Assembly (NCBI GenBank): GCA_020722645.1
Contig: DYKL01000003.1
Location: 1 to 40,985, forward strand
Direction of reading: 5' to 3'
Source: Acetofilamentum sp.
Lineage (GTDB): Bacteria; Bacteroidota; Bacteroidia; Bacteroidales; JAFGUD01
Length of the DNA: 40,985 nucleotides
Shown here: positions 8,277-31,681 of the stretch, in pieces
Layout: each line of letters begins with the position of its first letter
How positions within the stretch are numbered: position 1 is the first letter of the stretch
Made by a program: the position numbers and the translations under genes
The notes under the pieces: generated by a model
Databases searched by the model: none
The model's input: the letters and a program-made list of their open reading frames with translations, nothing else
What the model was told of the DNA's origin: nothing

Positions 8277-8281
8277 TTTCA

Positions 8282-15121: not shown

Positions 15122-15586
15122 TTATTTGCTGCCAACAAATGAAAGTATTCCAACTGCACAGGTTTTTTTATCTGTTACACCATCTTTGAATCTTATAGAA
15201 ACATAGTACATTCCTGATTTTCTGCATACGAAATCAAAAGAGTTGTAATGTTTTCCGCTAGCAGGATCGTAAGTCGATCCATAAGGATCTGTTTTTTCAG
15301 GATGTTGGCTATCGTATAAGGTTAAAATTACTTTCTTTTCAAATCCTTCTGGAACGCATAGATTAAATCTGTAATGTGCGTCTTTATTTAATACAACTGT
15401 CCAACGAGCTCCACTTTCTGCAGCAGTTGTGTTTTTCAACTTTGTATTGAAGTCTCTTAAATAGATACTTTGTGTTTCTGTTGCACAAGCATAAACCATT
15501 TTTTGAGGACATTGTGCTTTGGCTTTTTGTGGCAGTAAACTAAAAACAGCAAATGCAGCAATCAATGAAATTATGAATTTTTTCAT
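15122..15586 (-). CDS. Small secreted Cys-containing protein, unknown function
   Basis: 154 aa. Signal peptide MKKFIISLIAAFAVFSLLPQKAKA. Five Cys in the mature part. The start lies 1 nt after the stop of the upstream lipoprotein gene. Confidence 0.6.
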   Translation of the reverse strand: MKKFIISLIAAFAVFSLLPQKAKAQCPQKMVYACATETQSIYLRDFNTKLKNTTAAESGARWTVVLNKDAHYRFNLCVPEGFEKKVILTLYDSQHPEKTDPYGSTYDPASGKHYNSFDFVCRKSGMYYVSIRFKDGVTDKKTCAVGILSFVGSK

Positions 15587-15587
15587 A

Positions 15588-16526
15588 TTACAATTTTATT
15601 AGTTTGTTACGAATTTTTTCTGTTGTTGATATTATTTGTTGAAGTTGTTCGTCAGTAATTTCGACGACACTAACTTCATTTTGAGTTATAACTACGTGAC
15701 CATCAATAACTTCTGTTACAGGGTCGCCTACTTCGTAAGTTATTTTTACTTGGTCAAAAATATTTTGAAATTCCTTAAAATCAGCAACTAAACTTTCAAA
15801 ATAAGGATCATCTGAATATATTTTCAGTATGGGGTAAAGCATACTAAATAAAATTTTCTGTTCTCCGATTCTTTCTCTTAATTTTTCTGTCTCTTTTTCG
15901 CTTGCCACTTGTGTCAGCAAATATAAACCTTCTAACCAAACGCCTGTAATAACAAGTAAACTCAAATTGCTTCTTGCACTTTCTCTTAGATATGAGTCCA
16001 TTTCCTGAAAACTCTGCACAGATAAAAATAGCAGAGAGTCTATATTATCGTTGCTTGTTGCTATTCTTTTAAATGATTGAAAATCAAAAAACTGGCTTAC
16101 TTTCAAATCGTCAGAAAGACGTTTGATAGCAGAAAGATATTCAACTATAAGCGAAGACCTTTGATATACGTTTAGATAACCCAAATCTGCACTTAACATA
16201 CCTAAAGCCATTGCTTTTTTGTTGTTTGTATCGTAATTTTCAGTAAGTTTAGGATCAACCAAATATTTTTTTGAAAATTCAACATTTAAACTGTTCATTA
16301 AAGCAGCCATTTCTACAGGAGAAGAAAAACTGCTGATGATTTCATTAATTGCTTCTTCGTTTATAACAACTGATTGAGTATTATCCTGCTCAGTTATCAG
16401 ATTATTTAAATCGTTTTCATCTTTGTTCTTACAGCCTAATGTATATGATTGCACGTATAGAAAAAAAACGATACAAATTATGCTTAGTATGTATTTTTTT
16501 AGCATATTGAATGGTTTATTATGCAA
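15588..16526 (-). CDS. Putative lipoprotein, unknown function
   Basis: 312 aa. Lipobox-like YTLGCKN after a hydrophobic segment. The listed start is TTG. An ATG at 16505 (MLKKYIL...) is the more likely start. Confidence 0.6.
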   Translation of the reverse strand: MHNKPFNMLKKYILSIICIVFFLYVQSYTLGCKNKDENDLNNLITEQDNTQSVVINEEAINEIISSFSSPVEMAALMNSLNVEFSKKYLVDPKLTENYDTNNKKAMALGMLSADLGYLNVYQRSSLIVEYLSAIKRLSDDLKVSQFFDFQSFKRIATSNDNIDSLLFLSVQSFQEMDSYLRESARSNLSLLVITGVWLEGLYLLTQVASEKETEKLRERIGEQKILFSMLYPILKIYSDDPYFESLVADFKEFQNIFDQVKITYEVGDPVTEVIDGHVVITQNEVSVVEITDEQLQQIISTTEKIRNKLIKL

Positions 16527-16672: not shown

Positions 16673-19600
16673 TTATATAATTGACAGAACGATTAATCCA
16701 ATAACTATAACTGCTGTTGATATTAAAAGTATATATTTTAGTTTTTTTTGTTTTTTTATAAATTTAAAAATTTTCTCAATTCCTGAAATACCTCTTTTAA
16801 GATGCTCAAAATAAAGAGGAGGATATAAAAGTAAAGTCATAAACCAAATGACAGCCATGTTAAACCAATATGTATCAAAATGTTTTCCGAAGAAATATTT
16901 TTCAGGAGCGTAAAAATGTGCTCTGAATCCTATAAAATTACTGTCGTCAGGTTCTTGGAAAATTGGCTCTGCCTGTCGTACTAGTTCATCTTTATATCTT
17001 AAAATTTTGTATTTTTCGTATGTGTTGGTAACTATATCTTTTACGTGTTCATTTTCGTATTTGTTACGTAATCTTATATATAAACCAGGGTCTTTTAATG
17101 CCATTGCATTTTTTAAAGCTTCTTTTTCGGAATCTTTCTGAAAATTTATTGTTCCGTAAAATTTTCCAAGTTCTTCAAAATAATAAACCGTTTCATCATA
17201 AATATCTTCATCGAATTTTTCTAATGTCAGGTAATCCATATAATCATAACTAACGTCTTCACCTGTTTTAGTAAGCTCCTTGCCGATTTCGTTTTTGAGC
17301 AAAGCAAGATTTTCAGTAATTATCTGGTCGATAGAATCTACATTGGCTTCTTCGTCAAAGTCTTTTGTGTCAATTCCGTCAATAATATCTGTAAGTGCTT
17401 CTTCCAATTCTGGTATCCAGTGAACTTGCATAAAGTCGGCTTTGCTTATCTGACGGTCAATTTCGAAAAATGCTTCTTCAAATACATTGTTTTTAAACTG
17501 ATGCACCATTAAAGCTTCGTATGCCCATCTGGACTGCATAAACTCTGCAACTACCGGAACCTTGTCTATACTTCCGATTTTTCTGTTTAATTTGCTAAAG
17601 CTGAACATTGCACCGCCTAATGACATTAATGGAATCATTATCAGCGGAATTAGGATATATATTGTTACGGCTGAATTGAAAGTTGCTGAAATATTAAGCC
17701 CCAGCATATTGGCATATACAAAAGTTGAAAATAGTGCAAACCAATAAAAAAAGTTCATTCCCACAATTCCCAACATTGTATTTCCTATCAAGACGTATTC
17801 AATTGCCTGTATTGCTGAAATAACAGTAAGAATTATTATTTTAGCCATTAAATAGCTTGACCGCGAAAGGTTTAGAAATGCTTCCCGTTTTAATATTTTT
17901 CTGTCTCTGTATATTTCTTCGGCACTAACAGTAAGTCCCAGGAATAATGCAACTACAATGCTCATAAATATGAACGGTGGAATGTTTTCATTGTCGAAGA
18001 AAATATATACGTTTGAGGTCGGGTCGGCAATATAGCGTATTAAAAATGATAAAATGAATGCAAGTAAAGGTGCTTCTGTCATACTAAGCACAATATACTG
18101 TGTATTGCTTAATTTAGAAAGCAAATCTCGTGTCAAAAATATTTTTAACTGATTAAACCAGTTTGGCAAATTAAGTGTTTTTTCGGGTTTATCGTCCGAT
18201 TTTTCGACACGTGATATTTCTTTTTGACCATAGTAGGTTTCAGACCAAGCAATCGGTGTTACTTTTCTGTTTGGAGTGTATCTGCCGAACTCATCAACAA
18301 CTTTTGCTTCTATAATATCAAAAATCAGTTCAGGTTTTACTGTTCCGCAAACATGGCATTCTCCAACATCACTGCTGACTTGTTTATCAAGGGTTTTGAA
18401 GTATATAATTGCTTCAACAGGGTTCCCGTAATATACCTGATAGCCACCTGTATCTAAAATCATCATATTATCAAACATTTTGTAAATGTCTGATGACGGT
18501 TGGTGGATTACTACAAAAATTAGTTTCCCTTTCAGAGCTAATTCTCTCAGAAGGTCCATTACATTTTCAGAATCTCTTGAAGAAAGACCCGATGTCGGTT
18601 CATCAACAAAAAGAATCAAAGGTTCTCTGATTAATTCTAATGCAATATTGAGTCTTTTTCTTTGTCCGCCGCTTATAAGTTTGTTGAAAACATTACCTAC
18701 TTTAAGGTGTTTTATTTTATCAAGACCTAAATTAGTAAGTGTTTGATTAACAAGATTAGTTAAATCTGAGTCTTTTTTATCTTTAAAACAAAGTTTGGCA
18801 CTGTAGTATAGGTTTTGAAAAACAGTTAATTCTTCAATTAATAGGTCGTCTTGTGGTATGTAGCCAATTGTTCCTTCAAGTTTATCTTTTTGTGTATGTA
18901 GATTTAAGTTATTAATCATTACAGATCCGGAAGTGGGAGTGTAAATACCGGATAAAATATTTAATAAAGTGGTTTTTCCTGAGCCGCTTGCTCCGAGAAT
19001 TCCTATTAGTTTTCCTTGTGTTTCGGATAAATTGATTCTTTGTAAGCCTATATCTCCTGTTGGAAATTTATAATGAACATCTTTAACGTCGAATGATAAT
19101 TTAGAAACAGAAATGTCAGATAAGAATTTTGCAACAACATCGCTGTAATAAACAGGTTTTCCTTTTGGTAGTTTCAGAGTACTTCCGGTTGCGTATAGGT
19201 AAATTCTTTGGTTGCTTATAGGTAAACCGTTTAAAAGGACGCCTTCGTTACCGGTGTAACGCATAAAATATAATTCTGAACTTGAAATTCTCAGAACTAA
19301 AATTTTACCGTCAATATGGTCTGTCTTAATAGAAAGGCAGCTTTGACACAAAACATCTTCATCGTCAATAATTAAAATGCAACTTTTGTCAATTTTTTCA
19401 AGTTCATTTTCAATAACAAAGTCTCTGATGTTTGAATAATCTTCTTTTGAAACATTAAACACCTCTGCAACGGTATCAATAATAGCCATTCTTTGTTCTG
19501 TAAACTGACGGCTAGTATTTACCATTTCGAAAAGACGGACAAGTACAACAATTTTTTGGTTTTGGTCTAAGGTTTTATTGATTTTTCTGCAAAGACCTAA

Positions 19601-19837
19601 TGTTCTAACGGATTCTTGAACCGGCGTGAGTTGTTTTTTCTTTTTTTCAACTTGTGCAAATTCGTCAATTTCAGCTTTTTCCTTGAATTTTTTAAGATAT
19701 TCCTGTACAGCTTCATGACCGAGTTGTTGTGTTAAAAAAGATTCAACAAATTCCAGTTCTTTTGTGTGTACTCCTTCATCTTGTTTTGCGATAATGGCAA
19801 GGAGTTGAATTAAGGCATTTAATATTTCTTCACTCAT
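16673..19837 (-). CDS. ABC transporter, fused ATP-binding and ABC-2-type permease (ABCG-like NBD-TMD order) with a roughly 245-aa N-terminal regulatory extension
   Basis: 1054 aa. Walker A GASGSGKTTLLNILSG, signature LSGGQRKRLNIALELI, Walker B ILFVDEPTSGL, and H-loop VIHQPS. At least six C-terminal TM helices with a long loop before the last ones. The N-terminus carries two TerB-like helical segments plus a beta-rich segment. Confidence 0.85.
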   Translation of the reverse strand: MSEEILNALIQLLAIIAKQDEGVHTKELEFVESFLTQQLGHEAVQEYLKKFKEKAEIDEFAQVEKKKKQLTPVQESVRTLGLCRKINKTLDQNQKIVVLVRLFEMVNTSRQFTEQRMAIIDTVAEVFNVSKEDYSNIRDFVIENELEKIDKSCILIIDDEDVLCQSCLSIKTDHIDGKILVLRISSSELYFMRYTGNEGVLLNGLPISNQRIYLYATGSTLKLPKGKPVYYSDVVAKFLSDISVSKLSFDVKDVHYKFPTGDIGLQRINLSETQGKLIGILGASGSGKTTLLNILSGIYTPTSGSVMINNLNLHTQKDKLEGTIGYIPQDDLLIEELTVFQNLYYSAKLCFKDKKDSDLTNLVNQTLTNLGLDKIKHLKVGNVFNKLISGGQRKRLNIALELIREPLILFVDEPTSGLSSRDSENVMDLLRELALKGKLIFVVIHQPSSDIYKMFDNMMILDTGGYQVYYGNPVEAIIYFKTLDKQVSSDVGECHVCGTVKPELIFDIIEAKVVDEFGRYTPNRKVTPIAWSETYYGQKEISRVEKSDDKPEKTLNLPNWFNQLKIFLTRDLLSKLSNTQYIVLSMTEAPLLAFILSFLIRYIADPTSNVYIFFDNENIPPFIFMSIVVALFLGLTVSAEEIYRDRKILKREAFLNLSRSSYLMAKIIILTVISAIQAIEYVLIGNTMLGIVGMNFFYWFALFSTFVYANMLGLNISATFNSAVTIYILIPLIMIPLMSLGGAMFSFSKLNRKIGSIDKVPVVAEFMQSRWAYEALMVHQFKNNVFEEAFFEIDRQISKADFMQVHWIPELEEALTDIIDGIDTKDFDEEANVDSIDQIITENLALLKNEIGKELTKTGEDVSYDYMDYLTLEKFDEDIYDETVYYFEELGKFYGTINFQKDSEKEALKNAMALKDPGLYIRLRNKYENEHVKDIVTNTYEKYKILRYKDELVRQAEPIFQEPDDSNFIGFRAHFYAPEKYFFGKHFDTYWFNMAVIWFMTLLLYPPLYFEHLKRGISGIEKIFKFIKKQKKLKYILLISTAVIVIGLIVLSII

Positions 19838-19858
19838 TTTTTAATAATAGACATAATA

Positions 19859-20251
19859 TTAGTCCACTTCATAGCTTACTTGTTCAAAAGGTACTTCAAC
19901 TATATCAGCATATTCTTCGCCTGCCTCTTCCATATCTTCATCATCTTCGGGATAATGCCATCTAACGAGTACATCGTGACCGTCGTCGTACATATCTTCT
20001 AATTTTAATAAAACGTCAAGCAATAATTTTGAAGATGCTGTGTTGAAATATTCGAGTTTGAAATCGAAAATCGTTTTTTCCATAGGTGACTGTGCATATT
20101 CATCTAACCACTCTAATATAGGTTCGTAAAATGCTACAACATCTTCGGGCAGTGAACGACCCGAAATTTCAAAAATCGGATTATCTTTATTTGGATCTAA
20201 TATTACCTTAGGAGTGTCATCTGTACCTTGAATTTTAATTGGCTGTAACAT
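19859..20251 (-). CDS. DUF1987 / SiaC-like regulatory phosphoprotein
   Basis: 130 aa. Motifs GTDDTPKVILDP, ISGRSLPEDVVAFYEPILEWL, LEYFNTASSK (candidate phospho-Thr71, codon 20039-20041), VRWHYPEDD, and an acidic tail. These match my recollection of the DUF1987 family pattern. Confidence 0.7.
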   Translation of the reverse strand: MLQPIKIQGTDDTPKVILDPNKDNPIFEISGRSLPEDVVAFYEPILEWLDEYAQSPMEKTIFDFKLEYFNTASSKLLLDVLLKLEDMYDDGHDVLVRWHYPEDDEDMEEAGEEYADIVEVPFEQVSYEVD

Positions 20252-20276
20252 ATTTGATTTTTTTTTTTGTTAAAAA

Positions 20277-20867
20277 TTAGTTATCTGATTTTAAACGAGA
20301 AATAGTAGAAGTAAGAACAAAAAATGATTTTTCTTCGTCAATTTTGATGAAACTGTAAACCAGTTTTTGTCCTGTTTTTCGGGCAATATCAATAAAACCT
20401 AATCCGGCACCACCTTTTTCCGAAAGACGTCCTTCTTTAATTTTTTGTTTATAGAGTTTATTAAGCTCTTCTTTGTCGAGTTGATTTATGTGTTCAAGCA
20501 TTTTTTTCAACTCGTCAATTTTTTCGTTGATAACCACATTTCCGGTTGTAACGTTATATTCTTTTTCGTCTTTGCTTACCAAAAAAATACCTCTTCCATC
20601 TTTAGACTCAACAAAGTTAAACTGATTATCTGCGTGTTTGCTTATGTTTTGTAAACATTCGACCATAACATGAAAAACTTTCTTTTGAACCGAACTGTAA
20701 TCTTCATCCTTAATCATATTGTTTTCAGTCAAAGATGTAAAAGCTTTGGTTATCTGATGTGTAATTTCTCCCTCGTAAGCTAAGTTTATATTGTTTTTTT
20801 TCATCTTAAGATAAAAATCGTAAACAAACTCAAGGGATTTTTTACTGTCTTTTAAAATATTTGCCAT
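20277..20867 (-). CDS. SiaB-like protein kinase (GHKL/HATPase-like, anti-sigma-kinase fold)
   Basis: 196 aa. N-box-like VECLQNISKH and G2-box GGAGLGFIDIARKTG. Its size, and its position between a PP2C gene and a DUF1987 gene, fit the assignment. Confidence 0.7.
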   Translation of the reverse strand: MANILKDSKKSLEFVYDFYLKMKKNNINLAYEGEITHQITKAFTSLTENNMIKDEDYSSVQKKVFHVMVECLQNISKHADNQFNFVESKDGRGIFLVSKDEKEYNVTTGNVVINEKIDELKKMLEHINQLDKEELNKLYKQKIKEGRLSEKGGAGLGFIDIARKTGQKLVYSFIKIDEEKSFFVLTSTISRLKSDN

Positions 20868-20882
20868 ATTTAGAAAAAGTTT

Positions 20883-23492
20883 TTAAAATTCAACACCTAA
20901 TAATATTATATCATCAATTTGTTTGTGTTCTCCTTTCCAGTTTAAGAAAAGGTTTTCAATAATATTTGAAAATTCAAAAATGCTTGCATTTTTGTTTTCT
21001 TCAATTGTTTCTCTGATTTTGTTGTTTTTCATTTTCTCTCCTTTTTCACCACCAACTTGGTCAGCAAGACCATCAGAAAACAAAAATATTTTGTCGTTTT
21101 GCTTGTAATTAATAACGTAGTTTTCAAAGTTTTTTTCAGTTTTATTTTTCATAGGAATTCCTCCTATGGCTTTCAAAGAACCTTTATACTGTACTAATTC
21201 ACCATTATTTTTCAGATAATAAAGAGGTCTGTGTGCCCCTGCAAAGTCTAATTGATTTGTTTCAAAATTTATTTTACATAATGCAATATCCATACCATCT
21301 CTTGCTTCTGCGTCTATATCGTCTTGCTTTAATGTTTTTCTGACATTGAAATGAAGTTTGTCAAGGATTTGCCCTGCATTTAATTCTTTTCCTTCGGTAG
21401 ATACTATGTTGTTAATCAGGAAGTAACCAATAAAAGAAAGCAGTGCGCCCGGAACTCCGTGTCCGGTACAGTCTATGGCTGCAATATAAACGATGTTTTG
21501 TTGTGGGAAAATCCATGGAATATCGCCGCTTACTACATCGCGGGGGCGATAAAACATAAATGATTTGGGTAATGCATTCCTGATTTTATCTTCAGTCGGC
21601 AGAATAGCAGTTTGTATTCTTCTGGCGTAGTTAATACTTTCAGTGATACTTTTGTTCTTTTGTTCTATTTCTATTTGAATAAGTTTTTGTTCCGTAATAT
21701 CGTGAGCAACAAAAAGAACGGTTTCTAATTCATTGTATTCGTTAAATTCTGGGATTGCGTTAAATTGAACAATGCGGTCGTTCTGTCCTTCTGAGCCAGG
21801 GAAAACAGTTTCAGATTCAAATTTTACGTTGTTTTTTAAAATCTTGTCAAGGGCATTCTGAAAAACAAGTTCAATTTCAGCAGGTAAATTAGCTTCATTT
21901 ATGATATTTCCGATAAGGTTCCTTTTTCCGATACTGATGAACTGTTCTGCGATAGGATTTGCGTAAAAGAACCTACCTTCTGTATTTACTCGCACAATCA
22001 TATCAATTGAATTTTCGGAAAGAGCTTGCATTCTACCGCTCATTCTTTGTGCTTTTTCAGCAATTTTACGAACAGTTATGTCACGTGTATTAAAAATTAT
22101 ACCGTTAATAGCGGGGTTTTTGAGAAGATTTCTGCCGGTTGTTTCCAGCCAGATTTCTTCATTGTCGGATTTTTTGAATGTTGTTTCAAATGAAACAGGT
22201 TTTTCGGGATTATCAATTAAAGTAACAAAAGAAGATTTGAATTTATTGTTTGTATCTTCATCAAATACTAAAAATCCGTTTAGACCAACCAGTTCTTCGG
22301 CATTCATTCCAAGAATAGATTTTATAGACGGGCTTTCATAAGTGATAGTTCCGTTTTTGTTGTAAATTGAAATAACCTCAGATGCATTTTCCAACAAAGA
22401 ATAGAGCCTTTTTTGAGAACGTTCAACTTCTGCAATTTGGGCAGCAAGTTTACGGTTTGTTTCTTCCAGCTCCTTTTGAGTTTTCTTCATCTGTTCTGCA
22501 TTATATCTTAATTCTTCTTCATTTTTTTTGAGTTTATAAGTCATCTCCCTTGATTCTTGAAGAAGTTTTTCGGTTCTTTCGTTAACTTTAAGATTAAATA
22601 CAGTTTGCCCGACTATGTTTGAGATTTCTCTCATTAAGTTGATGGTTTTTTCAGGAAGTTTAGTTTCTAACGAAGCTATTTCTATAACACCCTGAAGTTT
22701 TTCATCACCCAGAAGTGGTGTAATTATAAGTGTTTTAGGTTTTTTGTCGCCAATAATACCGGAAGAGATTGTTGTGTAATTTTCGGGAATTTCACGTCTA
22801 TAAATAATGTCTTTTTCAAAAGCCGCAGCTCCAATAAGTCCTTGTCCGACTTTGAAAGATTTGTCAAAATATTTGCGGCGGTTGTATGCGTAATTAGCAA
22901 TGTTTTTTAAAAGTTTGTCATCTTCGTCATAAATGTAAAAAGCCCCTTGAACTGCATTCATATAATCAACCAAAGTCAATGTAGTCTCGTATGCTAAATC
23001 TTCAATTTTATTGTGAAAACGAAGTATGTCGCCAACTAATTCCTTCCCTTTTGCAATCCAGCTTTGTTCGGCTTCTCTTTGTGATGTTTCGATAAGGTTA
23101 TTACGCATAAGTAATAATGATTGCCCAAGCATATCGTTTGGATCGACTTCTAAGTCAGCAGCAAGTTCTCCTTGTCCGATTTTTTTTGCAAAATCAGAAT
23201 TTTTTTGGAGAACATCATTCATTTTGATGATAGTATAGTTAAGCTGATTTCTTATTTTTATAGTATTAATAATAAGAATATGAAATACTAGTGCTAAAAC
23301 TAAAGGTGCAGTATCTACAATATATATAATTGTATTGTTTGAGTGTATGTATTTAATACCGTTTATGTCAAATAAAAGGTCAAACCGATTTATTTCTATA
23401 ATCCAAGAAGTTAATAGAAACTGAAGTCCTATCAGAAATCCCAATAAGGTGTATTTATATCTTGTTTTTTTATTTATTGTGTCTTTATTCAT
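20883..23492 (-). CDS. Membrane-anchored GAF-PAS-PAS sensor with SpoIIE/PP2C phosphatase domain (SiaA-like role)
   Basis: 869 aa. Two N-terminal TM helices. GAF-like segment (GQGLIGAAAFEKDIIY...LQGVIEIASL). Two PAS/PAC-like segments (...FNTRDITVRKIAE and ...VAHDITEQKLIQ). PP2C motifs SGDIPW, AIDCTGHGVPGALLSF, FSDGLADQVGG and IDDIILLGVEF. Confidence 0.85.
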   Translation of the reverse strand: MNKDTINKKTRYKYTLLGFLIGLQFLLTSWIIEINRFDLLFDINGIKYIHSNNTIIYIVDTAPLVLALVFHILIINTIKIRNQLNYTIIKMNDVLQKNSDFAKKIGQGELAADLEVDPNDMLGQSLLLMRNNLIETSQREAEQSWIAKGKELVGDILRFHNKIEDLAYETTLTLVDYMNAVQGAFYIYDEDDKLLKNIANYAYNRRKYFDKSFKVGQGLIGAAAFEKDIIYRREIPENYTTISSGIIGDKKPKTLIITPLLGDEKLQGVIEIASLETKLPEKTINLMREISNIVGQTVFNLKVNERTEKLLQESREMTYKLKKNEEELRYNAEQMKKTQKELEETNRKLAAQIAEVERSQKRLYSLLENASEVISIYNKNGTITYESPSIKSILGMNAEELVGLNGFLVFDEDTNNKFKSSFVTLIDNPEKPVSFETTFKKSDNEEIWLETTGRNLLKNPAINGIIFNTRDITVRKIAEKAQRMSGRMQALSENSIDMIVRVNTEGRFFYANPIAEQFISIGKRNLIGNIINEANLPAEIELVFQNALDKILKNNVKFESETVFPGSEGQNDRIVQFNAIPEFNEYNELETVLFVAHDITEQKLIQIEIEQKNKSITESINYARRIQTAILPTEDKIRNALPKSFMFYRPRDVVSGDIPWIFPQQNIVYIAAIDCTGHGVPGALLSFIGYFLINNIVSTEGKELNAGQILDKLHFNVRKTLKQDDIDAEARDGMDIALCKINFETNQLDFAGAHRPLYYLKNNGELVQYKGSLKAIGGIPMKNKTEKNFENYVINYKQNDKIFLFSDGLADQVGGEKGEKMKNNKIRETIEENKNASIFEFSNIIENLFLNWKGEHKQIDDIILLGVEF

Positions 23493-23562: not shown

Positions 23563-26500
23563 TTATTCAAAAGTATCAAGCCATTCTTTATATAAATTAT
23601 CATCTTCTTGGTCAAATTTATCTGTTATGCTATCTTCAATTTCTTTTAGACGTTGATTTTCTTCTTCGGCTAACTGAAATTCTTTTAGTAATTCTTCCAT
23701 ATTCTGAGTCATAATTTTTTCTTGAATTACAAGTTCATTTTCAAGTCTTTTTTGTTCAGAAATATCAAAAGCCAGATATAATATTTTTACAATATTTCCA
23801 TGTATGTTTTTTACAGGAGTATATTGGTTTAAAAGCCAGACATCTTCGTCTGTCATTTTGTTTTTTCTTTTTACAACTATTTGTTGAAGTTCTCCTTGGT
23901 TGACTTTTTTCCAAATTTTTTCAAATTCTTCAAATTCTTCTTCTGGAATGAATTCTTTAATGTTTTTACCAATCATTATTTCAGGATCATATCCTAAAGT
24001 AGAAACGTGAATACTGTTTGAAGAAACAAAAGTACCTTCGGGTAAATACTCAGCTCGCATTAGTGTTTGATCCACCGCAGAAAACAATGCTGTTAGTTCC
24101 AGTTCGTTTTGTTGAGTTTTTTCGAGTAGTTCTTTTGTTTGTTGTTCCATTTTTTTTTCTTCGGTAATATCAATACCAAGATACAGTATTTCAATTACAT
24201 CACCTTTTGTGTCAAAAACCGGATTATATTGGTTTTTCAACCAAATGTCTTCGTCTGTAGTTTTGTTTTTTCTTCTAGCAACAAGTTCTTTTTGATTCCC
24301 TTTACAAACTTCTTTCCAGAGAATTTCAAAATCCTCTTTTTCATTTTCAGGAATAAATTCAAGAATTTTTTTACCAATCATACTGTTTACTTCATAACCC
24401 ATTATTGATTGGTGTACCTGATTTGATTCTATGAACACACCTTCTGTTGTATATCTGGCGCGCATAATAGTCCTATCAATACCGCTAAGAATGTTTTTAA
24501 GGGCAAGTTCTTTTAATTGAGCTTCACTAAGAAGGTCGGCAGCCATTTGTTCTACTTGTTTCTGTTCTGTTATGTCTATTGCAAGATATAAAACTTTAAT
24601 AACACTGCCTGTATTATCTTTGATAGGTGTGTATTGGTTTAATAACCAGACATCTTCTCCGGTTGCTTTATTGGTTCTTTTTACGGTAATTTGTTCAAGG
24701 TTTCCTTCTTTTACGCTATCCCATATAATAATGAAATTTTCTTTGTCTTCTTCGGACAAAAATTCCAGTATATTTTTACCAATCATATTTTGTTTGTCAT
24801 ATCCGAGAGTGTGGGTATGAATTTCGTTTGCATCAACAAAAGTACCATCGGGAAGATATTCTGCTCTCATAATTGCCTGGTCTATACCGGATAAAATACC
24901 GCTTAACTGAATTTCTTTTTGTTGAGCTTCGGTAAGTAGCTTTGCAGCAATTTGTTCTGCCTTTTTTTGTTCGGTAATATCAATACCCAGATAAAGAATT
25001 TTAATAACGTCACCGTCTTGATTTTCGATTGGCGTGTATTGATTTAACAGCCATATATCTTCTCCGGTGGACATATTGATTCTTTTGACAGTGGCTTGTT
25101 CCAGATTACCTCTCTTGACTCTGTTCCAAATTTTATGAAAATTATCTCTTTCGTTTTCGGGAATAAATTCAGTAATATTTTTCCCTTTCATATTTTCAAT
25201 GTCGTATCCCAGAGTTTGAGCGTGAATATCGTTTGCATTGATAAAGGTTCCATCAATATAATATTCGGCACGCATTATTGCCTGGTCGATACCGGTAAAT
25301 ATACCTCTTAGTTCAAGCTCGTTTTGTTTTGTTTGAGTAAGCAGCTCCTGTGCTTTTGCTTCTGCTTGTTTTTGTTCAGTAATATCAATAGCCAGATAGA
25401 GGATTTTAACAATATTATTATTTTCGTCAGAAATAGGGTTGTATTGATTTATTAACCATATTTCTTTGCCAGTACTTTTATTTACTCTTTTAACTGTAAG
25501 TTCTTTTGGCTTTCCGGAAACAACTTCTTTCCATAATTTTTTAAAATTTTCTCTTTCTTCTTCCTGAATGAAATCAAGGATGTTTTTACCTGACATATTC
25601 TGAATTTCGTAACCCATAATTCTTTGGTGAACAGAATTCGAGTTAATAAAGGTTCCGTCGACTGAGTATTCAGCACGCATAATTGTTCTATCTACGCCGG
25701 AGAGAACTCCTTTAAGCTCAACCTCTTTTTCTTGAGTTTCTTTAAGTAATTTTTGGGATTTTTCTTCAGCAACTTTTTGTTCGGTAATGTCAATAGCAAG
25801 ATAGAGAACTTTAATAACTTTGCCTTTGTCATCTTTGATAGGAGTGTACTGGTTCAAAAGCCAAATATCGGCTCCTGTCATTTTATTCTGACGTTTAACT
25901 GTAATTTGAATAGGTCTTCCGGCAGATACATCAGACCAAATTCTGTTAAAATTGTTAAGGTCTTCTTTTTGGATAAATTCGAAAATGCTTTTTCCCTTCA
26001 TTGCTTCAATTTCATAACCCATTGTTTGTCTGTGAACAAGGTTTGAATTGATGAATTTACCGTCAGGAGAATATTCGGCACGCATAAGAGTTTGGTCAAC
26101 ACCTGTAAGAATACCGGTCATTTCGATTTCGTTTCTTTTAGCTATCTGGTGTGCTTTGGTAACTTCCTGCATAGTATCCTGCAGAATTTTTTCACGGTTA
26201 GCTAATTCATCGGATTTTTTCTGAGATTCTTTAAGAAGTTCAATAGTTCTTGCGTTGATTTTTGCAGTTTCGAGAGTAGCAGCAATAGAACGGCAAAGCG
26301 TTTCAGAAAATTCCACTTCAAATTTTTCGAAATTTCTGATAGAAGCTATTTCAATTACCCCAAGTAAACCATTGTCGGTAAGTAAAGGGAGAATAAGAAG
26401 GTTGTTTGGTGGAGCATCACCAAGACCGGATTCAATTTCAAGATAGTCAGATGGTATTTGAGTCAGATGAATAGATGATTGGTCAATAGCAACTGTTCCG

Positions 26501-27690
26501 ATTAATCCTTCACCCAAATTGATTTTTTTTGAATAGAATTTTTTGCGGTCGTAAGCAAAAGCTCCAAAAAGTTCAAGGAATGGGGGTTGATTTTCAGGTG
26601 TTTGCAATATAAAAAGACCCCCGACAGAAGCTTCAAGATATTTAACAAATTCTTTAATGATTACATCAGTAAGTTTTTTCAAATCGTTTGAGAACTGTCT
26701 CATTAATTCAGAAAACTTGTTAATTCCAATGTTTGCCCATTCTTTTTGTTTGTCTTCTTTCAGCCTCAGTTCTAATTCTTTCTGAGAATTTACAAGTTGT
26801 TCTCTAAGAGAAATTATTGTGCTTGAAATTTTATCGTTTTTACTTTGTTCGACAATCTGAAATTCGTAATTTTTATTTTTAAGTTCTGATATATAGTTGT
26901 TTATTCTGTTGTAGTTGTCGTTTATTTTAATAATAGAATCAATCGTTTCCGAACTGATTTTTTTGTCGTCAGGAGTAAGTTTAATATTTTCACCCGCAGA
27001 GAGTTTTTTTAAATAATGATTTATGGTCTGAGGAAGTCTTAGATTATCTTTAAAGAATATTATGCTTAAAAAAGCAAAAAGGATTACGAAGACAAAAAAG
27101 CTGATTATTGTAAATAAAATAGTATTTTTTATGTTTTTTTGAAGTTCAATTATTGTTTTTGTAAAATTTTGATTGTTTTCTACTTTGAGCTTTTTAAGTA
27201 TAACTGCAATGTTTTGAAAAGAAAGTAATTCCTTATTAAACAGTCTGCTTATGTTTTTCAGGTTAATTTCTTCTTTTTTATATTCGTTAAAGATTTCGTA
27301 AACAATGTTCTGAAATATTTGGTATTCTGTTGAAAATTCATCAATTATGATATTTTCATCTACGCTTGAAGTAATGTTTTTGAATTGTTTTGTTATTTGT
27401 AAAATAGAGTCATTGGTTTGAAAGAAAGCGTTTTGAATTTCAATAAAATCGTCTAATTTTTCGTAAGAAATATGATTAAATACAATAAATGAATTTATAA
27501 TCCTTTCAGAATTATTTATTAAGTTGTTTTTTTGGAGGAAAGTGTTGGTCAGGTAGTTTTTCTGATTTTCAATTCTGTTCTGAAATGTATTGAAATTTAC
27601 TATAAGCAAAATAATATATACCCCAACAATTGAGGATAAAATTAAAATTTTCAATCTAATTGATAAGTTTTTCAGATTTATTTTGCTCAT
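23563..27690 (-). CDS. TM-(HAMP-like)-GAF-6xPAS sensor protein with no recognisable output domain
   Basis: 1375 aa. TM helices at about aa 14-33 and 191-213. GAF-like segment (GEGLIGTVAIDQSSIH...LLGVIEIASI). Six tandem 135-aa PAS/PAC-like repeats (xGxLxGVDxxIMRAEY...YLAIDITEQK). A 58-aa helical, acidic C-terminal tail. Confidence 0.85.
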   Translation of the reverse strand: MSKINLKNLSIRLKILILSSIVGVYIILLIVNFNTFQNRIENQKNYLTNTFLQKNNLINNSERIINSFIVFNHISYEKLDDFIEIQNAFFQTNDSILQITKQFKNITSSVDENIIIDEFSTEYQIFQNIVYEIFNEYKKEEINLKNISRLFNKELLSFQNIAVILKKLKVENNQNFTKTIIELQKNIKNTILFTIISFFVFVILFAFLSIIFFKDNLRLPQTINHYLKKLSAGENIKLTPDDKKISSETIDSIIKINDNYNRINNYISELKNKNYEFQIVEQSKNDKISSTIISLREQLVNSQKELELRLKEDKQKEWANIGINKFSELMRQFSNDLKKLTDVIIKEFVKYLEASVGGLFILQTPENQPPFLELFGAFAYDRKKFYSKKINLGEGLIGTVAIDQSSIHLTQIPSDYLEIESGLGDAPPNNLLILPLLTDNGLLGVIEIASIRNFEKFEVEFSETLCRSIAATLETAKINARTIELLKESQKKSDELANREKILQDTMQEVTKAHQIAKRNEIEMTGILTGVDQTLMRAEYSPDGKFINSNLVHRQTMGYEIEAMKGKSIFEFIQKEDLNNFNRIWSDVSAGRPIQITVKRQNKMTGADIWLLNQYTPIKDDKGKVIKVLYLAIDITEQKVAEEKSQKLLKETQEKEVELKGVLSGVDRTIMRAEYSVDGTFINSNSVHQRIMGYEIQNMSGKNILDFIQEEERENFKKLWKEVVSGKPKELTVKRVNKSTGKEIWLINQYNPISDENNNIVKILYLAIDITEQKQAEAKAQELLTQTKQNELELRGIFTGIDQAIMRAEYYIDGTFINANDIHAQTLGYDIENMKGKNITEFIPENERDNFHKIWNRVKRGNLEQATVKRINMSTGEDIWLLNQYTPIENQDGDVIKILYLGIDITEQKKAEQIAAKLLTEAQQKEIQLSGILSGIDQAIMRAEYLPDGTFVDANEIHTHTLGYDKQNMIGKNILEFLSEEDKENFIIIWDSVKEGNLEQITVKRTNKATGEDVWLLNQYTPIKDNTGSVIKVLYLAIDITEQKQVEQMAADLLSEAQLKELALKNILSGIDRTIMRARYTTEGVFIESNQVHQSIMGYEVNSMIGKKILEFIPENEKEDFEILWKEVCKGNQKELVARRKNKTTDEDIWLKNQYNPVFDTKGDVIEILYLGIDITEEKKMEQQTKELLEKTQQNELELTALFSAVDQTLMRAEYLPEGTFVSSNSIHVSTLGYDPEIMIGKNIKEFIPEEEFEEFEKIWKKVNQGELQQIVVKRKNKMTDEDVWLLNQYTPVKNIHGNIVKILYLAFDISEQKRLENELVIQEKIMTQNMEELLKEFQLAEEENQRLKEIEDSITDKFDQEDDNLYKEWLDTFE
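23689..26118 (-). repeat. Six in-frame 405-bp tandem repeats encoding the PAS modules
   Basis: The conserved DNA block ggtaatatcaata(c/g)c(c/a)agata recurs at about 23760, 24165, 24570, 24975, 25380 and 25785, giving a 405-nt period. The protein period is exactly 135 aa (aa 525-1334). Confidence 0.9.
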
Positions 27691-31300: not shown

Positions 31301-31681
31301 GTCTTGAAAAGCAGGAGGCACTTTGTTTTTTATACTTTGAAATATTAGACTTCCGTTTTTAGTTGGTTTTAAGTAACCAATTTCGTTGTCTCCTCCCACA
31401 TACACAGTGTTTTTGTCGTCAATACAGAGTGATGTTACCGACGTAGATGCAACTTTAATTTTGTTCCAGTTTTGTCCGTCAAATTCCAGAACCACTCCGT
31501 CAGAGTTGCCGAAATACATAAGCCCTCTTTGATCTTGAACGACAATCCAATTTTGCCTTGCTCCTTTGTAATCGTCAGTTGTGTAATTAATCACATAAGG
31601 AATTGCTCCCGTATTTTTTATTTGTGAGTAACAATTGATTGAAAGGAGTAACAGAATTATTATTTTTGCAATACTTTTCAT
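28382..31681 (-). CDS. Periplasmic beta-propeller (two-component regulator propeller) / Y_Y_Y sensor with TM helix, coiled coil and SpoIIE/PP2C phosphatase domain
   Basis: 1099 aa with a signal peptide. A long beta-rich region is followed by a Y_Y_Y-like block (YQSPQNIQYTYFLEGNDKKWSEWT...LKPGEYKFMVKARN). TM helix YLTVFAFIGYIIIAGLLIWLIVYLY. PP2C motifs SGDFYWF, AVDCTGHGVPGAFMSM, FSDGYADQFGG and TDDILVIGFKL. Confidence 0.85.
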   Translation of the reverse strand: MKSIAKIIILLLLSINCYSQIKNTGAIPYVINYTTDDYKGARQNWIVVQDQRGLMYFGNSDGVVLEFDGQNWNKIKVASTSVTSLCIDDKNTVYVGGDNEIGYLKPTKNGSLIFQSIKNKVPPAFQDFQKIWDIYISKDSSVVFQTFDELFLYKNDSIIVLPVEQYFPEGLFLMTFKPLDEIYIYTKYKGLYQIENNDLKFIDNSSILSNSMVRAVLDYKNDSLLILTWFDGMFTMKDGNFNKINSPIDNILNHNIYRAINIKDDYLGFMLYNGGLLITDKNFKIIQFINVQNGLKNDIIRRAGFDNQDNLWLCTENGISSIYLFSPFSIYEQYYNFDKEATSFYSKIFNDILYIATASGVYYKKWGTYEDKINIDKFNLINNEQGDIKTQFLDIIESKLIAASDNGLYEIQDFKANYILAEGIDRALRGVKVFRIPFDDPNTIIGISTVIFIYKKENNKWELSHDIQNISGNYLEQDDHGNFWVANQTQGIYRIKFDENYTKIDQLTVFDTTSGLNGLPSQLDNKIFKIKDEILFTTIGGIFTYNYNSDKFEPYEKLNSVINEGNQINKKSQIFFITIDSHDNYWYKEQIQLKEQTEYELCLLKKTDTGYIKIKDEFLSLKNKIFFIDQIEDSEYIIGSTEGIIHYDSKIKNNYLISFPAFIRSVKILNSDSIIFNGTFTTTDSLIEFEQKLKDIPTLPYKFGNLRFNFSGAYYQSPQNIQYTYFLEGNDKKWSEWTKENYKDYSNLKPGEYKFMVKARNQFNVESTLATYEFIIKPPWYLTVFAFIGYIIIAGLLIWLIVYLYTRRLRKQKQYLEEQVKLRTKEIEMQKEEILTQRDKLAEQNEKIQKINKDITSSIEYAKRIQTAMLPLEINIKAHLDNYFILFKPRDIVSGDFYWFAQRKDKVFIAAVDCTGHGVPGAFMSMIGAEILTTIVTSENISDASEILVRLNKYVRFALKQDTTENQDGMDMGLCVIDKANNILEYSGAKNPMFYISNDEVFKVKGNRQSIGGFQFGDFEKDTIKYTSPTWFYIFSDGYADQFGGDDHSKFMIKRFKELLFEIHKKPMLEQKQILDENIENWRATTPQTDDILVIGFKL

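What the first reader, a model, noticed from the sequence alone, without database searches (positions are those of the whole stretch)
16673..23492. SiaA/SiaB/SiaC-type threonine-phosphorylation switch with no diguanylate cyclase, operonic with a long ABC exporter
Seen: four minus-strand genes are separated by only 15, 25 and 21 nt. They are an 869-aa TM-GAF-PAS-PAS-PP2C protein (DCTGHGVPGA), a 196-aa HATPase-like protein (VECLQNISKH ... GGAGLGFIDIARK), a 130-aa protein with YFNTASSK and VRWHY motifs, and a 1054-aa ABC NBD-TMD fusion.

Established: in Pseudomonas aeruginosa, SiaA (PP2C), SiaB (kinase) and SiaC (DUF1987, phosphorylated on a Thr in an NTSS-type motif) control the diguanylate cyclase SiaD by partner switching.

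Inference: no GGDEF gene exists anywhere in this window, and the siaD position is occupied by the ABC protein. The phosphorylation state of the 130-aa protein may therefore gate a transporter rather than c-di-GMP synthesis. As far as I know this output has not been described for this switch.
Basis: partly seen in the sequence, partly recalled or inferred. Interest (0 to 1): 0.8.

Follow-up and report, generated by a model that had tools for sequence, protein, structure and literature searches.

The report
Phospho-switch operon coupled to ABC exporter
A three-protein phosphorylation switch, known only as a controller of a biofilm signalling enzyme in Pseudomonas, is here fixed in a conserved operon with a membrane ABC exporter in many Bacteroidales species, so it probably switches a transporter on and off instead.

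Summary
Four minus-strand genes, 15, 25 and 21 nt apart, encode:
- a TM-GAF-PAS-PAS-PP2C phosphatase;
- a SiaB-family kinase (NF038262, 172.7 bits against a cutoff of 85);
- a SiaC/DUF1987 protein (PF09345, 135 bits) whose Thr71 aligns with the P. aeruginosa phospho-site Thr68;
- a 1054-aa ABC half-transporter.

No GGDEF domain or motif occurs in the window or in 80 related loci.

The order phosphatase-kinase-SiaC-ABC, followed by a 312-aa lipoprotein and a 154-aa secreted protein, holds in 79 of 80 species-level genomes. It also holds in four more distant lineages, with tight spacing and all catalytic motifs invariant.

The ABC protein carries a previously unnoted cytoplasmic N-terminal module: a TerB-like helical bundle plus an FHA-like beta domain that lacks the canonical phosphothreonine-binding residues.

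The ABC family is wider than the switch-linked clade. Distant members stand alone or next to the lipoprotein gene. Only the linked clade has a basic patch (residues 73-110), opposite a very acidic SiaC-like protein.

Direct gating of the transporter is a well-supported inference, not shown. I found no published description. Verdict: new variant of a known kind.

The parts
23563..27690 (-). 1375-aa membrane sensor: two TM segments, GAF, six PAS domains, no output domain. It lies 70 nt upstream of the phosphatase gene and is the likely input partner of the switch.
   Evidence: ORF. Pfam GAF_2 and 6 PAS stretches, with no catalytic domain. TM segments at 13-31 and 195-213. A homologous PAS/GAF sensor lies upstream of the phosphatase gene in most of the 80 related loci, though its size and number vary.
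20883..23492 (-). SiaA-like sensor phosphatase, 869 aa: 2 TM, GAF, PAS, PAS, PP2C (SpoIIE).
   Evidence: Pfam SpoIIE at 668-868, GAF_2 and PAS. NF038263 SiaA matches the C-terminal 260 residues at 1.8e-45 but falls below the equivalog cutoff. The PP2C metal-binding motifs SGD, DCTGHGVPG, RDGMD, DG..DQ and DD are 100% conserved in 67 orthologues.
20277..20867 (-). SiaB-family protein kinase, 196 aa.
   Evidence: NF038262 at 172.7 bits (cutoff 85) and PF19788 DUF6272 at 1.1e-42. It aligns over 164 residues with P. aeruginosa SiaB, PDB 6kko_A. E70, N74 and GGAGLG are 100% conserved in 77 orthologues.
19859..20251 (-). SiaC-family (DUF1987, STAS-related) phosphoprotein, 130 aa, net charge -25. The putative phospho-acceptor is Thr71 (codon 20039-20041).
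   Evidence: PF09345 at 135 bits. It aligns with SiaC structures 6k4f and 6kko, placing NTAS on NTSS so that T71 equals T68. N70-T71-A72-S73-S74-K75 and the acidic helix DDEDM.EAGEEY are invariant or nearly so in 80 orthologues. Net charge.
19391..19837 (-). ABC protein residues 1-149: cytoplasmic TerB-like helical bundle. It holds an invariant N-terminal helix (MSEEIL.AL.QL.AIIAKQD) and a clade-specific basic pair of helices (residues 73-110). This is the proposed docking site for the SiaC-like protein.
   Evidence: Pfam TerB at 30.2 bits (cutoff 24.4). AF2 model with pLDDT 86; Foldseek hit to PG1108, 2h5n. Conservation. Net charge of residues 73-110 is +5.6 in the switch-linked clade against -3.0 in unlinked clades.
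19103..19390 (-). ABC protein residues 150-245: FHA-like beta domain without the canonical phosphothreonine-binding residues.
   Evidence: AF2 model. Most of the top 50 Foldseek PDB hits, including the first seven, are FHA domains: MEK1, CEP170, Rad53, EssC, with E from 1.5e-3 and TMt 0.45-0.59. There is no Pfam FHA hit and no hhalign similarity to a canonical FHA. The conserved residues are G196, N203, G218, Y230 and S232, with no Arg or His.
16673..19102 (-). ABC protein residues 246-1054: nucleotide-binding domain, ABC-2/ABCG-type membrane domain (TM1-5), a roughly 200-aa poorly conserved insert predicted to be periplasmic, then two C-terminal TM segments.
   Evidence: ABC_tran at 265-416, ABC2_membrane at 563-751, and TIGR00955 (ABCG-type) at 7e-72. 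Walker A, Walker B and the H-loop are 100% conserved in 76 orthologues. Hydropathy and per-domain conservation.
15588..16526 (-). 312-aa predicted lipoprotein (signal peptide, LGC lipobox). It is a conserved partner of this ABC family, and its fold has no PDB neighbour.
   Evidence: ORF. It lies downstream of the ABC gene in 72 of 80 loci and directly upstream of the ABC gene in 34 loci of unlinked clades. No Pfam or NCBIfam hit. AF2 pLDDT 83.5; best Foldseek E 0.37.
15122..15586 (-). 154-aa secreted, cysteine-containing protein. Its gene starts 1 nt after the lipoprotein gene ends.
   Evidence: ORF, with a signal-peptide-like N-terminus. It is conserved after the lipoprotein gene in 72 loci, with a median gap of 2 nt. 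No family hit.

Best explanation
This is a conserved Bacteroidales operon that joins a SiaA/SiaB/SiaC-type threonine-phosphorylation partner switch to an ABC exporter module.

Shown:
- A membrane GAF-PAS-PAS PP2C phosphatase, a SiaB-family kinase and a SiaC-family protein with the conserved phospho-Thr are encoded directly upstream of an ABCG-like half-transporter.
- The transporter carries a cytoplasmic TerB-like plus FHA-like N-terminal module.
- A lipoprotein gene and a small secreted-protein gene follow.
- All catalytic motifs are intact, there is no diguanylate cyclase, and the order is fixed across species.

Inferred mechanism:
- The kinase phosphorylates Thr71 of the SiaC-like protein.
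- The sensor phosphatase removes the phosphate when its GAF/PAS domains, and probably the neighbouring 1375-aa multi-PAS sensor, perceive a signal.
- The unphosphorylated, very acidic SiaC-like protein then binds the cytoplasmic part of the ABC dimer. The most likely site is the clade-specific basic helices 73-110 of the TerB-like module, or else the ATPase domain. Binding changes dimerisation or ATPase activity and so switches export on or off.
- Phosphorylation releases it.

This follows two precedents: unphosphorylated SiaC clamps the helical stalk of the SiaD dimer, and the STAS protein MlaB binds the ABC ATPase MlaF. The exported substrate is unknown. The periplasmic insert, the lipoprotein and the secreted protein point to an envelope-directed process.
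For: - **Family membership.** The three switch proteins pass the family models and keep the phospho-site. Catalytic residues of phosphatase, kinase, SiaC motif and ABC ATPase are 100% conserved in 67-80 orthologues.
- **Synteny.** The order SiaA-SiaB-SiaC-ABC holds in 79 of 80 species-representative genomes, and in 72 of those 80 loci the two downstream genes follow in the same order. SiaC-like identity across them is 70-90% and ABC identity 52-71%.
- **Spacing.** Median gaps are 28, 12, 41, 62 and 2 nt.
- **Distant lineages.** The same linkage appears in distant relatives of the ABC N-terminus at 39-48% identity, including a Flavobacteriales MAG.
- **No cyclase.** No GG[DE]EF motif occurs in roughly 1.4 Mb of related loci.
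- **Only cytoplasmic candidate.** The ABC protein is the only conserved cytoplasm-exposed non-switch, non-sensor protein in the cluster. Its N-terminal 245 residues form a dedicated regulatory-looking module.
- **One clade.** All 77 switch-linked ABC proteins form one pure clade.
- **Charge match.** That clade alone has a net-positive helix pair at 73-110 (+5.6 against -3.0), opposite a SiaC-like protein of net charge -14 to -27.
- **Precedents.** SiaC binds a basic helical stalk and is released by T68 phosphorylation, and the authors propose that DUF1987 proteins regulate adjacent proteins (PMC8457831). The STAS protein MlaB binds the ABC ATPase MlaF, and a phosphomimetic T52E weakens binding (PMC7367683).
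Against: - No direct test of binding was possible.
- Synteny shows a functional link, not direction. The transporter could feed information into the switch, or both could serve a third partner.
- The ABC family works without the switch in other clades, so the switch is an add-on.
- The charge difference is essentially one clade against the rest, so it could be a single historical event. The window protein itself has +4, and some unlinked members reach +1 to +2.
- There are two exceptions: L005 has SiaC without the ABC gene, and L087 has the ABC gene without the switch.
- Phosphorylation of Thr71 is not demonstrated.
Confidence: 0.55

Rival explanations
1. The link is real but the polarity or contact differs. 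The FHA-like domain of the ABC protein recognises the phosphorylated Thr71, so the phospho-form rather than the unphosphorylated form is recruited to the transporter. This would resemble the way FHA domains of the mycobacterial ABC exporter Rv1747 read phosphothreonine.
For: The beta domain at residues 150-245 has an FHA-like fold; most top Foldseek hits, including the first seven, are FHA domains, several of them solved with pThr peptides. It sits immediately before the ATPase domain in the same N-terminal position as in Rv1747 (my own knowledge of that protein). A pThr-producing kinase is encoded two genes upstream.
Against: There is no Pfam FHA hit and no profile similarity to a canonical FHA. 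The Arg, Ser-x-x-His and Asn residues that bind phosphothreonine are not conserved; the family-invariant residues are G196, N203, G218, Y230 and S232. The FHA-like domain is also present in clades that lack the switch. In the one studied system, phosphorylation releases SiaC from its target.
Confidence: 0.12
2. The switch and the transporter are co-expressed, but the SiaC-like protein acts on something else, such as an unlinked enzyme or a transcription or sigma-factor regulator. Alternatively, the transporter module is an input: its activity or its periplasmic partners report envelope status to the phosphatase or kinase, as flux-sensing ABC transporters do for some kinases.
For: Synteny alone does not give direction. 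The ABC-lipoprotein pair functions without the switch in other clades. L005 keeps SiaB and SiaC without the ABC gene. The window encodes four further PP2C sensor phosphatases, which suggests a broader network around a single SiaB/SiaC pair.
Against: SiaC-family proteins have no DNA-binding or enzymatic domain, and in the studied case they act on the protein encoded next to them. No other conserved cytoplasmic candidate lies in the cluster. The ABC protein has a dedicated cytoplasmic N-terminal module whose surface charge changes specifically in the linked clade. The phosphatase already has its own GAF and PAS input domains.
Confidence: 0.28
3. The adjacency is fortuitous or an annotation artefact, and the four genes have no functional relation.
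For: None beyond the general possibility. The promoter and terminator scans were uninformative.
Against: The same gene order holds in 79 of 80 species-level genomes and in distant lineages, with gaps of tens of nucleotides. All ORFs have strong family support and conserved catalytic residues.
Confidence: 0.02

Closest known systems
SiaABCD partner-switching system of Pseudomonas aeruginosa (PA0172-PA0169)
   Same: The three regulatory parts occur in the same order: a membrane sensor PP2C phosphatase, a SiaB-family kinase, and a DUF1987/SiaC phosphoprotein. The N-T-x-S phospho-site motif is the same (T71 equals T68), and the target gene lies immediately downstream (PMC8457831; bioRxiv 10.1101/674879).
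   Different: - There is no SiaD or GGDEF gene; an ABC half-transporter occupies that position.
- All three proteins miss the NCBIfam equivalog cutoffs, so they are paralogous family members rather than orthologues.
- The phosphatase sensor region is GAF-PAS-PAS; only the C-terminal 260 residues match the SiaA model.
- The SiaC-like protein is far more acidic (-25 against about -10).
- An extra multi-PAS sensor, a lipoprotein and a secreted protein belong to the unit.
MlaB-MlaF in the MlaFEDB phospholipid ABC transporter of E. coli
   Same: A small STAS-fold protein binds and regulates the ATPase of an ABC transporter. The Thr at the classical STAS phospho-position lies in the interface, and a phosphomimetic weakens binding (PMC7367683). 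SiaC is described as structurally STAS-related (PMC8457831).
   Different: No kinase or phosphatase is known for MlaB, and its phosphorylation is stated to be an open question. Here a dedicated kinase and phosphatase are encoded next to the STAS-like protein. The transporter type differs: MlaE/MCE importer-like against an ABCG-like NBD-TMD fusion. Binding of the SiaC-like protein to the ABC protein has not been shown here.
Rv1747 of Mycobacterium tuberculosis (FHA-FHA-NBD-TMD ABC exporter regulated by Ser/Thr phosphorylation)
   Same: An ABCG-like exporter with NBD-TMD order carries an N-terminal FHA-type regulatory module and is linked to Thr phosphorylation signalling. This comparison rests on my own knowledge; the FHA-like fold here is.
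   Different: Rv1747 has two canonical FHA domains that bind pThr in its own linker after phosphorylation by a Hanks-type kinase. Here there is one FHA-like domain lacking the pThr-binding residues, preceded by a TerB-like bundle. The kinase is a SiaB-type (GHKL-like) partner-switch kinase acting on a separate small protein.
Classical STAS partner switches (SpoIIAA/SpoIIAB/SpoIIE, RsbV/RsbW/RsbU, HsbA/HsbR)
   Same: The logic is a PP2C phosphatase, a GHKL-type Ser/Thr kinase and a small phosphoprotein that changes partners according to its phospho-state (named).
   Different: The outputs of those systems are sigma factors or diguanylate cyclases. The phosphoprotein here belongs to the DUF1987 family rather than Pfam STAS, and the kinase belongs to the SiaB/DUF6272 family.

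Membership tests
SiaABC-type partner switch | Small phosphoprotein of the SiaC/DUF1987 family | tested here: met
   PF09345 at 135 bits against a cutoff of 24.5. It aligns over residues 1-123 with SiaC structures 6k4f and 6kko.
SiaABC-type partner switch | Conserved phospho-acceptor Thr in the N-T-S-S type motif at the start of helix alpha2 | tested here: met
   YFNTASSK aligns with YLNTSSIK, so T71 equals T68 (T68 is the phospho-site in bioRxiv 10.1101/674879). The motif is 100% conserved in 80 orthologues.
SiaABC-type partner switch | SiaB-family kinase encoded next to the phosphoprotein | tested here: met
   NF038262 at 172.7 bits against a cutoff of 85. It aligns with SiaB 6kko_A with the catalytic Glu conserved. 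The gap to the SiaC-like gene is 25 nt.
SiaABC-type partner switch | PP2C-type sensor phosphatase with intact metal-binding aspartates | tested here: met
   Pfam SpoIIE at 55.4 bits against a cutoff of 25. The NF038263 model matches positions 401-655. Aspartate motifs are 100% conserved.
SiaABCD orthologues (P. aeruginosa equivalogs) | Scores above the NCBIfam equivalog cutoffs for SiaA, SiaB and SiaC | tested here: not met
   SiaA scores 155.6 against 700, SiaB 87.9 against 225, and SiaC 80.5 against 150.
SiaABCD orthologues (P. aeruginosa equivalogs) | GGDEF diguanylate cyclase (SiaD) as the downstream target gene | tested here: not met
   There is no GGDEF Pfam hit in the window. No GG[DE]EF motif occurs in the window or in the 80 related loci. 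An ABC gene is downstream in 79 of 80 loci.
SiaABC-type partner switch | Actual Thr phosphorylation and dephosphorylation, and phospho-dependent partner binding | not testable with these tools
   This needs Phos-tag or MS and binding assays.
ABC exporter, ABC-2/ABCG-like (type V) half-transporter | NBD with Walker A, Walker B and H-loop, followed by an ABC-2 type membrane domain in one chain | tested here: met
   ABC_tran at 108.4 bits and ABC2_membrane at 68.9 bits. TIGR00955 scores 7e-72, below its subfamily cutoff. The ATPase motifs are 100% conserved.
FHA domain | FHA beta-sandwich fold | tested here: inconclusive
   The AF2 model is confident over residues 150-240. Most top Foldseek hits, including the first seven, are FHA domains, but E-values are only 1.5e-3 to 0.3 and TMt is 0.45-0.59.
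FHA domain | Sequence-profile membership and conserved pThr-binding residues (Gly-Arg, Ser-x-x-His, Asn-Gly) | tested here: not met
   No Pfam FHA hit even at E=10. hhalign against a canonical FHA found nothing. No invariant Arg or His occurs in 33 or 52 family members.
TerB domain | Match to PF05099 | tested here: met
   30.2-32.3 bits against a cutoff of 24.4, over residues 8-138. Structural hit to the TerB-like protein PG1108, 2h5n.
STAS-protein-regulated ABC transporter (MlaB-MlaF type) | Physical complex between the STAS-like protein and the ABC ATPase | not testable with these tools
   Multimer modelling was not available, and the fusion attempts failed.

The most novel reading that the evidence does not exclude
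A dedicated kinase-phosphatase pair toggles a STAS-like protein that directly gates an ABC exporter. This would be the first natural example of a partner switch whose output is membrane transport. It would also be a ready-made answer to the open question, raised for MlaB-MlaF, of whether STAS-type regulators of ABC transporters are controlled by phosphorylation. In the window's genome it may integrate several PP2C sensor inputs, and in related lineages a CheR/CheB methylation module.
Probability: 0.45. Interest if true: 0.78.

Novelty: new variant of a known kind. Interest (0 to 1): 0.62.

Why it matters
The Sia-type switch has been studied only in Pseudomonas aeruginosa, where it controls c-di-GMP synthesis. 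Here the same three-protein logic is fixed to a transporter. From my own knowledge, this phylum largely lacks c-di-GMP signalling.

If the inference holds, three things follow:
- The known outputs of partner switching, so far sigma factors, cyclases and secretion regulators, would extend to direct post-translational control of an ABC exporter.
- The phospho-regulated STAS-ABC mechanism that the MlaFB structural work left open would become experimentally testable.
- A function-linked handle would exist for a large uncharacterised Bacteroidota ABC family (626 clusters at 50% identity) and its lipoprotein partner, whose fold has no solved relative.

Tried and rejected
1. **Complex modelling.** I tried to model the SiaC-like protein with ABC residues 1-253. 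A typed fusion with a linker gave a MAFFT alignment in which ABC homologues were misaligned onto the SiaC part. The job was not run, so no complex model exists.
2. **Sequence evidence for an FHA domain.** Only fold similarity remains.
3. **Function of the 312-aa lipoprotein.** There is no Pfam or NCBIfam hit. The AF2 model is good, but Foldseek against PDB found nothing (best E 0.37).
4. **Defence-system reading.** PADLOC gave only generic ABC-ATPase matches. Rejected.
5. **RNA elements.** Rfam at gathering thresholds found nothing in the window.
6. **Promoter and terminator scan.** Counts were not above shuffled expectation, and the consensus is unsuited to Bacteroidota.
7. **First charge calculation.** The version using raw coordinates was confounded by a variable Lys-rich linker. 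The alignment-based version replaces it.
8. **Clade-specific positions.** They are denser in the N-terminal module (0.13 and 0.09) than in the NBD or TMD (0.04 and 0.06). Faster-evolving regions would show this anyway, so it counts only as weak support.
9. **Alignment of seven distant ABC N-termini.** It was too divergent for the locus scan, so a two-sequence alignment was used instead.
Full report
**1. Observation**

The window has about 29% GC and its proteins look Bacteroidales-like. It holds a run of minus-strand ORFs:

| Coordinates | Length |
|---|---|
| 27690-23563 | 1375 aa |
| 23492-20883 | 869 aa |
| 20867-20277 | 196 aa |
| 20251-19859 | 130 aa |
| 19837-16673 | 1054 aa |
| 16526-15588 | 312 aa |
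| 15586-15122 | 154 aa |

The four genes of the finding are separated by 15, 25 and 21 nt, as stated, and every quoted motif is present.

Profile searches gave:
- 869 aa: GAF_2, two PAS domains and a SpoIIE/PP2C domain. The C-terminal 260 residues match the SiaA model at 1.8e-45.
- 196 aa: DUF6272 at 1.1e-42 and the NCBIfam SiaB-family kinase model at 172.7 bits (cutoff 85).
- 130 aa: Pfam SiaC (DUF1987) at 135 bits (cutoff 24.5).

None of the three regulators reaches the equivalog cutoffs for P. aeruginosa SiaA, SiaB or SiaC. They are family members, not orthologues.

Against solved structures, the 130-aa protein aligns with SiaC (6k4f, 6kko) so that YFNTASSK lies on YLNTSSIK. Thr71 therefore corresponds to the experimentally phosphorylated Thr68. 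The 196-aa protein aligns over 164 residues with SiaB.

No ORF in the window has a GGDEF domain, and no GG[DE]EF motif exists in any frame.

**2. Conservation of the arrangement**

The SiaC-like protein is unusually conserved; the best 120 database relatives are at least 80% identical. I scanned one genome per species (GTDB representatives) with its most conserved peptides. Most are labelled Bacteroidales. Others include Draconibacterium, Tenuifilaceae, Salinivirgaceae, Rikenellaceae, Williamwhitmania and Perlabentimonas.

- In 79 of the 80 loci the order phosphatase, kinase, SiaC-like, ABC is kept on one strand.
- In the 72 loci where the two downstream genes were found, the 312-aa and 154-aa homologues follow.
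- Median gaps are 28, 12, 41, 62 and 2 nt.
- The one exception, L005, has a split phosphatase gene and an AT-rich region after SiaC.
- None of the roughly 1.4 Mb contains a GG[DE]EF motif in an ORF of 60 aa or more.
- Catalytic residues are 100% conserved across 67-80 orthologues. This covers the PP2C aspartate motifs, kinase E70, N74 and GGAGLG, the SiaC N-T-A-S-S-K motif, and the ABC Walker A, Walker B and H-loop.

Mean identity to the window protein:

| Protein or region | Identity |
|---|---|
| SiaC-like | 0.74 |
| Kinase | 0.65 |
| ABC (whole) | 0.56 |
| ABC NBD | 0.74 |
| ABC TMD | 0.68 |
| ABC TerB-like | 0.60 |
| ABC FHA-like | 0.53 |
| Phosphatase | 0.50 |
| Lipoprotein | 0.41 |
| Secreted protein | 0.36 |

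**3. The reverse direction**

I started from the ABC N-terminal module.
- Distant relatives at 39-48% identity were looked up on their contigs. Four of five lineages again lie directly downstream of SpoIIE, DUF6272 and SiaC genes. One of these is a Flavobacteriales MAG and one has two tandem kinase genes.
- The fifth, L087, comes from a frameshift-ridden assembly with a transposase nearby. It has the ABC, lipoprotein and secreted-protein genes but no switch.

An exhaustive HMMER search shows that the N-terminal module defines a sizeable family. It gave 626 clusters at 50% identity with E of 1e-3 or better, and full-length members are 980-1160 aa.

A metagenome scan seeded with two of the most distant members returned 80 loci. 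In these:
- The switch is absent next to the ABC gene in nearly all.
- 34 have the lipoprotein gene directly upstream of the ABC gene.
- 34 have neither. In the loci inspected, the neighbours look like unrelated housekeeping genes, as judged by eye from the translated sequences.
- 10 more lack enough upstream sequence to judge.
- Three carry SiaB or SiaC genes in other positions.

In a neighbour-joining tree of 126 full-length ABC proteins, all 77 switch-linked ones form a single pure clade, at 55% or more identity to the window. The unlinked ones are 37-46% identical.

The ancient unit is therefore the ABC protein plus its lipoprotein. The Sia-type switch is a clade-specific regulatory addition that is then kept faithfully. 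Sampling is anchored, on SiaC for one set and on distant ABC members for the other. Clade purity is consequently partly a sampling outcome.

**4. Anatomy of the ABC protein**

An AlphaFold2 model of residues 1-253, built with 33 homologues (pLDDT 86, pTM 0.82), shows a helical bundle (3-149) and a beta domain (154-240).

Foldseek against the PDB returns mostly FHA domains for the beta part: MEK1 at E 1.5e-3, then CEP170, Rad53 FHA1 and EssC. It returns the TerB-like protein PG1108 for the helical part. Sequence methods see no FHA. The residues conserved across the family are G196, N203, G218, Y230 and S232, with no Arg or His. I call it FHA-like and do not file it as a phosphothreonine reader.

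The extreme N-terminal helix, MSEEIL.AL.QL.AIIAKQD, is almost invariant.

Hydropathy puts four clear TM segments at 582-741; a fifth, at about 695-715, fell below the threshold and I placed it by eye. There follow a poorly conserved insert of about 200 aa (791-985, identity 0.34), which I infer to be periplasmic, and two more TM segments, of which the hydropathy scan found only the last (1036-1054) and I placed the other (about 1000-1020) by eye.

The 312-aa protein has a signal peptide and an LGC lipobox. The 154-aa protein has a signal peptide and five cysteines. The lipoprotein model is confident (pLDDT 83.5) but has no structural neighbour in the PDB, so the substrate remains unknown.

**5. 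A possible docking surface**

The SiaC-like protein has net charge -25 over 130 residues and an invariant acidic helix, DDEDM.EAGEEY.

In P. aeruginosa, unphosphorylated SiaC uses helices alpha2 and alpha3 and the N67-T68-S69 motif to clamp a basic helical stalk of the SiaD dimer. T68 phosphorylation abolishes binding (PMC8457831).

In an alignment-based comparison, ABC residues 73-110 form two helices of the TerB-like bundle. Their net charge is +5.6 (sd 0.8) in the 77 switch-linked proteins (window +4). In 48 unlinked family members it is -3.0 (sd 2.1). The neighbouring segment 111-149 does not differ.

Four distant switch-linked lineages give +6, +7, +4 and +2. L087 gives +6. Loci whose nearby SiaC-like protein is only mildly acidic give -1 to 0. 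Clade-specific substitutions include the charge reversals K18/D, K85/E and R116/E.

This fits electrostatic docking of the acidic SiaC-like protein on the TerB-like module. It is essentially a one-clade contrast, however, and is not proof.

**6. Mechanism: what is shown and what is inferred**

Shown:
- Family membership of the three switch proteins.
- The conserved phospho-site.
- Intact catalytic motifs.
- Absence of a cyclase.
- A fixed, tightly spaced gene order with an ABC exporter module.
- The domain architecture of the ABC protein.

Inferred:
- The kinase phosphorylates T71, and the GAF-PAS phosphatase reverses this on signal input.
- The output-less 1375-aa multi-PAS protein probably contributes to that input. 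In other lineages a CheR, sensor, CheR, CheB, GAF gene set sits upstream and may do the same.
- The unphosphorylated small protein binds the cytoplasmic part of the ABC dimer and changes its ATPase or transport activity.

A second precedent is MlaB, a STAS protein that binds the ABC ATPase MlaF. A T52E phosphomimetic weakens that binding, and the authors state that phosphoregulation is an open question because no kinase is known (PMC7367683). SiaC is described as structurally STAS-related.

Rivals:
- Phospho-dependent recruitment through the FHA-like domain. The missing pThr residues argue against it, as does the presence of the domain in unlinked clades.
- A different, unlinked target, or the transporter acting as an input. 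This is not excluded.
- Chance adjacency. This is excluded.

**7. Comparison with known systems and novelty**

The searchable literature contains the Sia system only for P. aeruginosa. One comparative paper cites it as an example. No paper mentions DUF1987, PF09345 or DUF6272 in another context.

The eLife structure paper does suggest in general terms that DUF1987 proteins modulate adjacent proteins, so the principle is anticipated. NCBI's separate "SiaB family" model shows that curators know the family is wider than SiaABCD.

What is new:
- The specific, conserved coupling to an ABC exporter.
- The TerB-like plus FHA-like regulatory module.
- The associated envelope proteins.
- The clade-specific basic patch.

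I rate this a new variant of a known kind. PADLOC and Rfam give no competing explanation.

**8. Verdict**

| Claim | Confidence |
|---|---|
| This is a Sia-type switch genetically dedicated to the ABC module | about 0.95 |
| Unphosphorylated SiaC-like protein directly gates the ABC protein | about 0.55 |
| The same link, but with phospho-dependent recruitment through the FHA-like domain | about 0.12 |

Interest: 0.62.

Noticed in passing
window 5544-13653 (+): Three tandem paralogous sensor phosphatases of 910, 891 and 898 aa, each 7TMR-DISM_7TM plus SpoIIE/PP2C. The first keeps the metal-binding motif DSTGHGVPGA. The second (DSTDTNVIST) and third (DSTGQNVSGT) are degenerate and may be pseudo-phosphatases.
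   Followed up: partly
window 28382-31681 (-): A 1099-aa Y_Y_Y plus SpoIIE sensor phosphatase whose PP2C domain is 40% identical to that of the SiaA-like protein. The window thus has five PP2C sensors but only one SiaB/SiaC pair, which hints at a multi-input switch.
   Followed up: partly
window 34073-36079 (-) and 31830-34019 (-); L012:321-1211; L087:439-3975: A PD40 + CarboxypepD_reg + OmpA protein, which from my own knowledge has the PorE-like architecture of type IX secretion, lies next to a 729-aa protein with no family hit. PorP/SprF genes lie upstream of the module in L012 and upstream of the ABC gene in L087. This may link the module to type IX secretion or the cell surface.
   Followed up: no
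L012:1394-6746; L083:1-5774; L084:575-6289: In many related loci the SiaA-like gene is preceded by CheR, a dCache/GAF membrane sensor, a second CheR, a CheB methylesterase without a receiver domain, and a small GAF protein. L083 also has CheD and a CheB with a receiver domain. No CheA or CheW was seen, so this may be a methylation-based adaptation module feeding a PP2C switch.
   Followed up: partly
L083:8378-9527: Two tandem DUF6272/SiaB-family kinase genes precede one SiaC-like gene.
   Followed up: no
window 15588-16526 (-): The conserved 312-aa lipoprotein gives a confident AlphaFold2 model: a helical bundle, a four-stranded sheet and a C-terminal helix (pLDDT 83.5). It has no PDB fold neighbour (best Foldseek E 0.37) and no Pfam or NCBIfam family. 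In unlinked clades its gene sits directly upstream of the ABC gene rather than downstream.
   Followed up: yes
window 16880-17467 (-), ABC residues 791-985: A poorly conserved insert of about 200 aa (identity 0.34) lies after TM5 of the ABC-2 membrane domain and is followed by two more TM segments. It is probably a periplasmic domain, which is unusual for bacterial ABC-2 exporters.
   Followed up: partly
window 23563-27690 (-); L001:1-6687; L003:2-6700: The upstream sensor has six near-identical PAS repeats and no output domain. In the closest relatives the homologous ORF is over 2200 aa, so the PAS array expands and contracts between close species.
   Followed up: no
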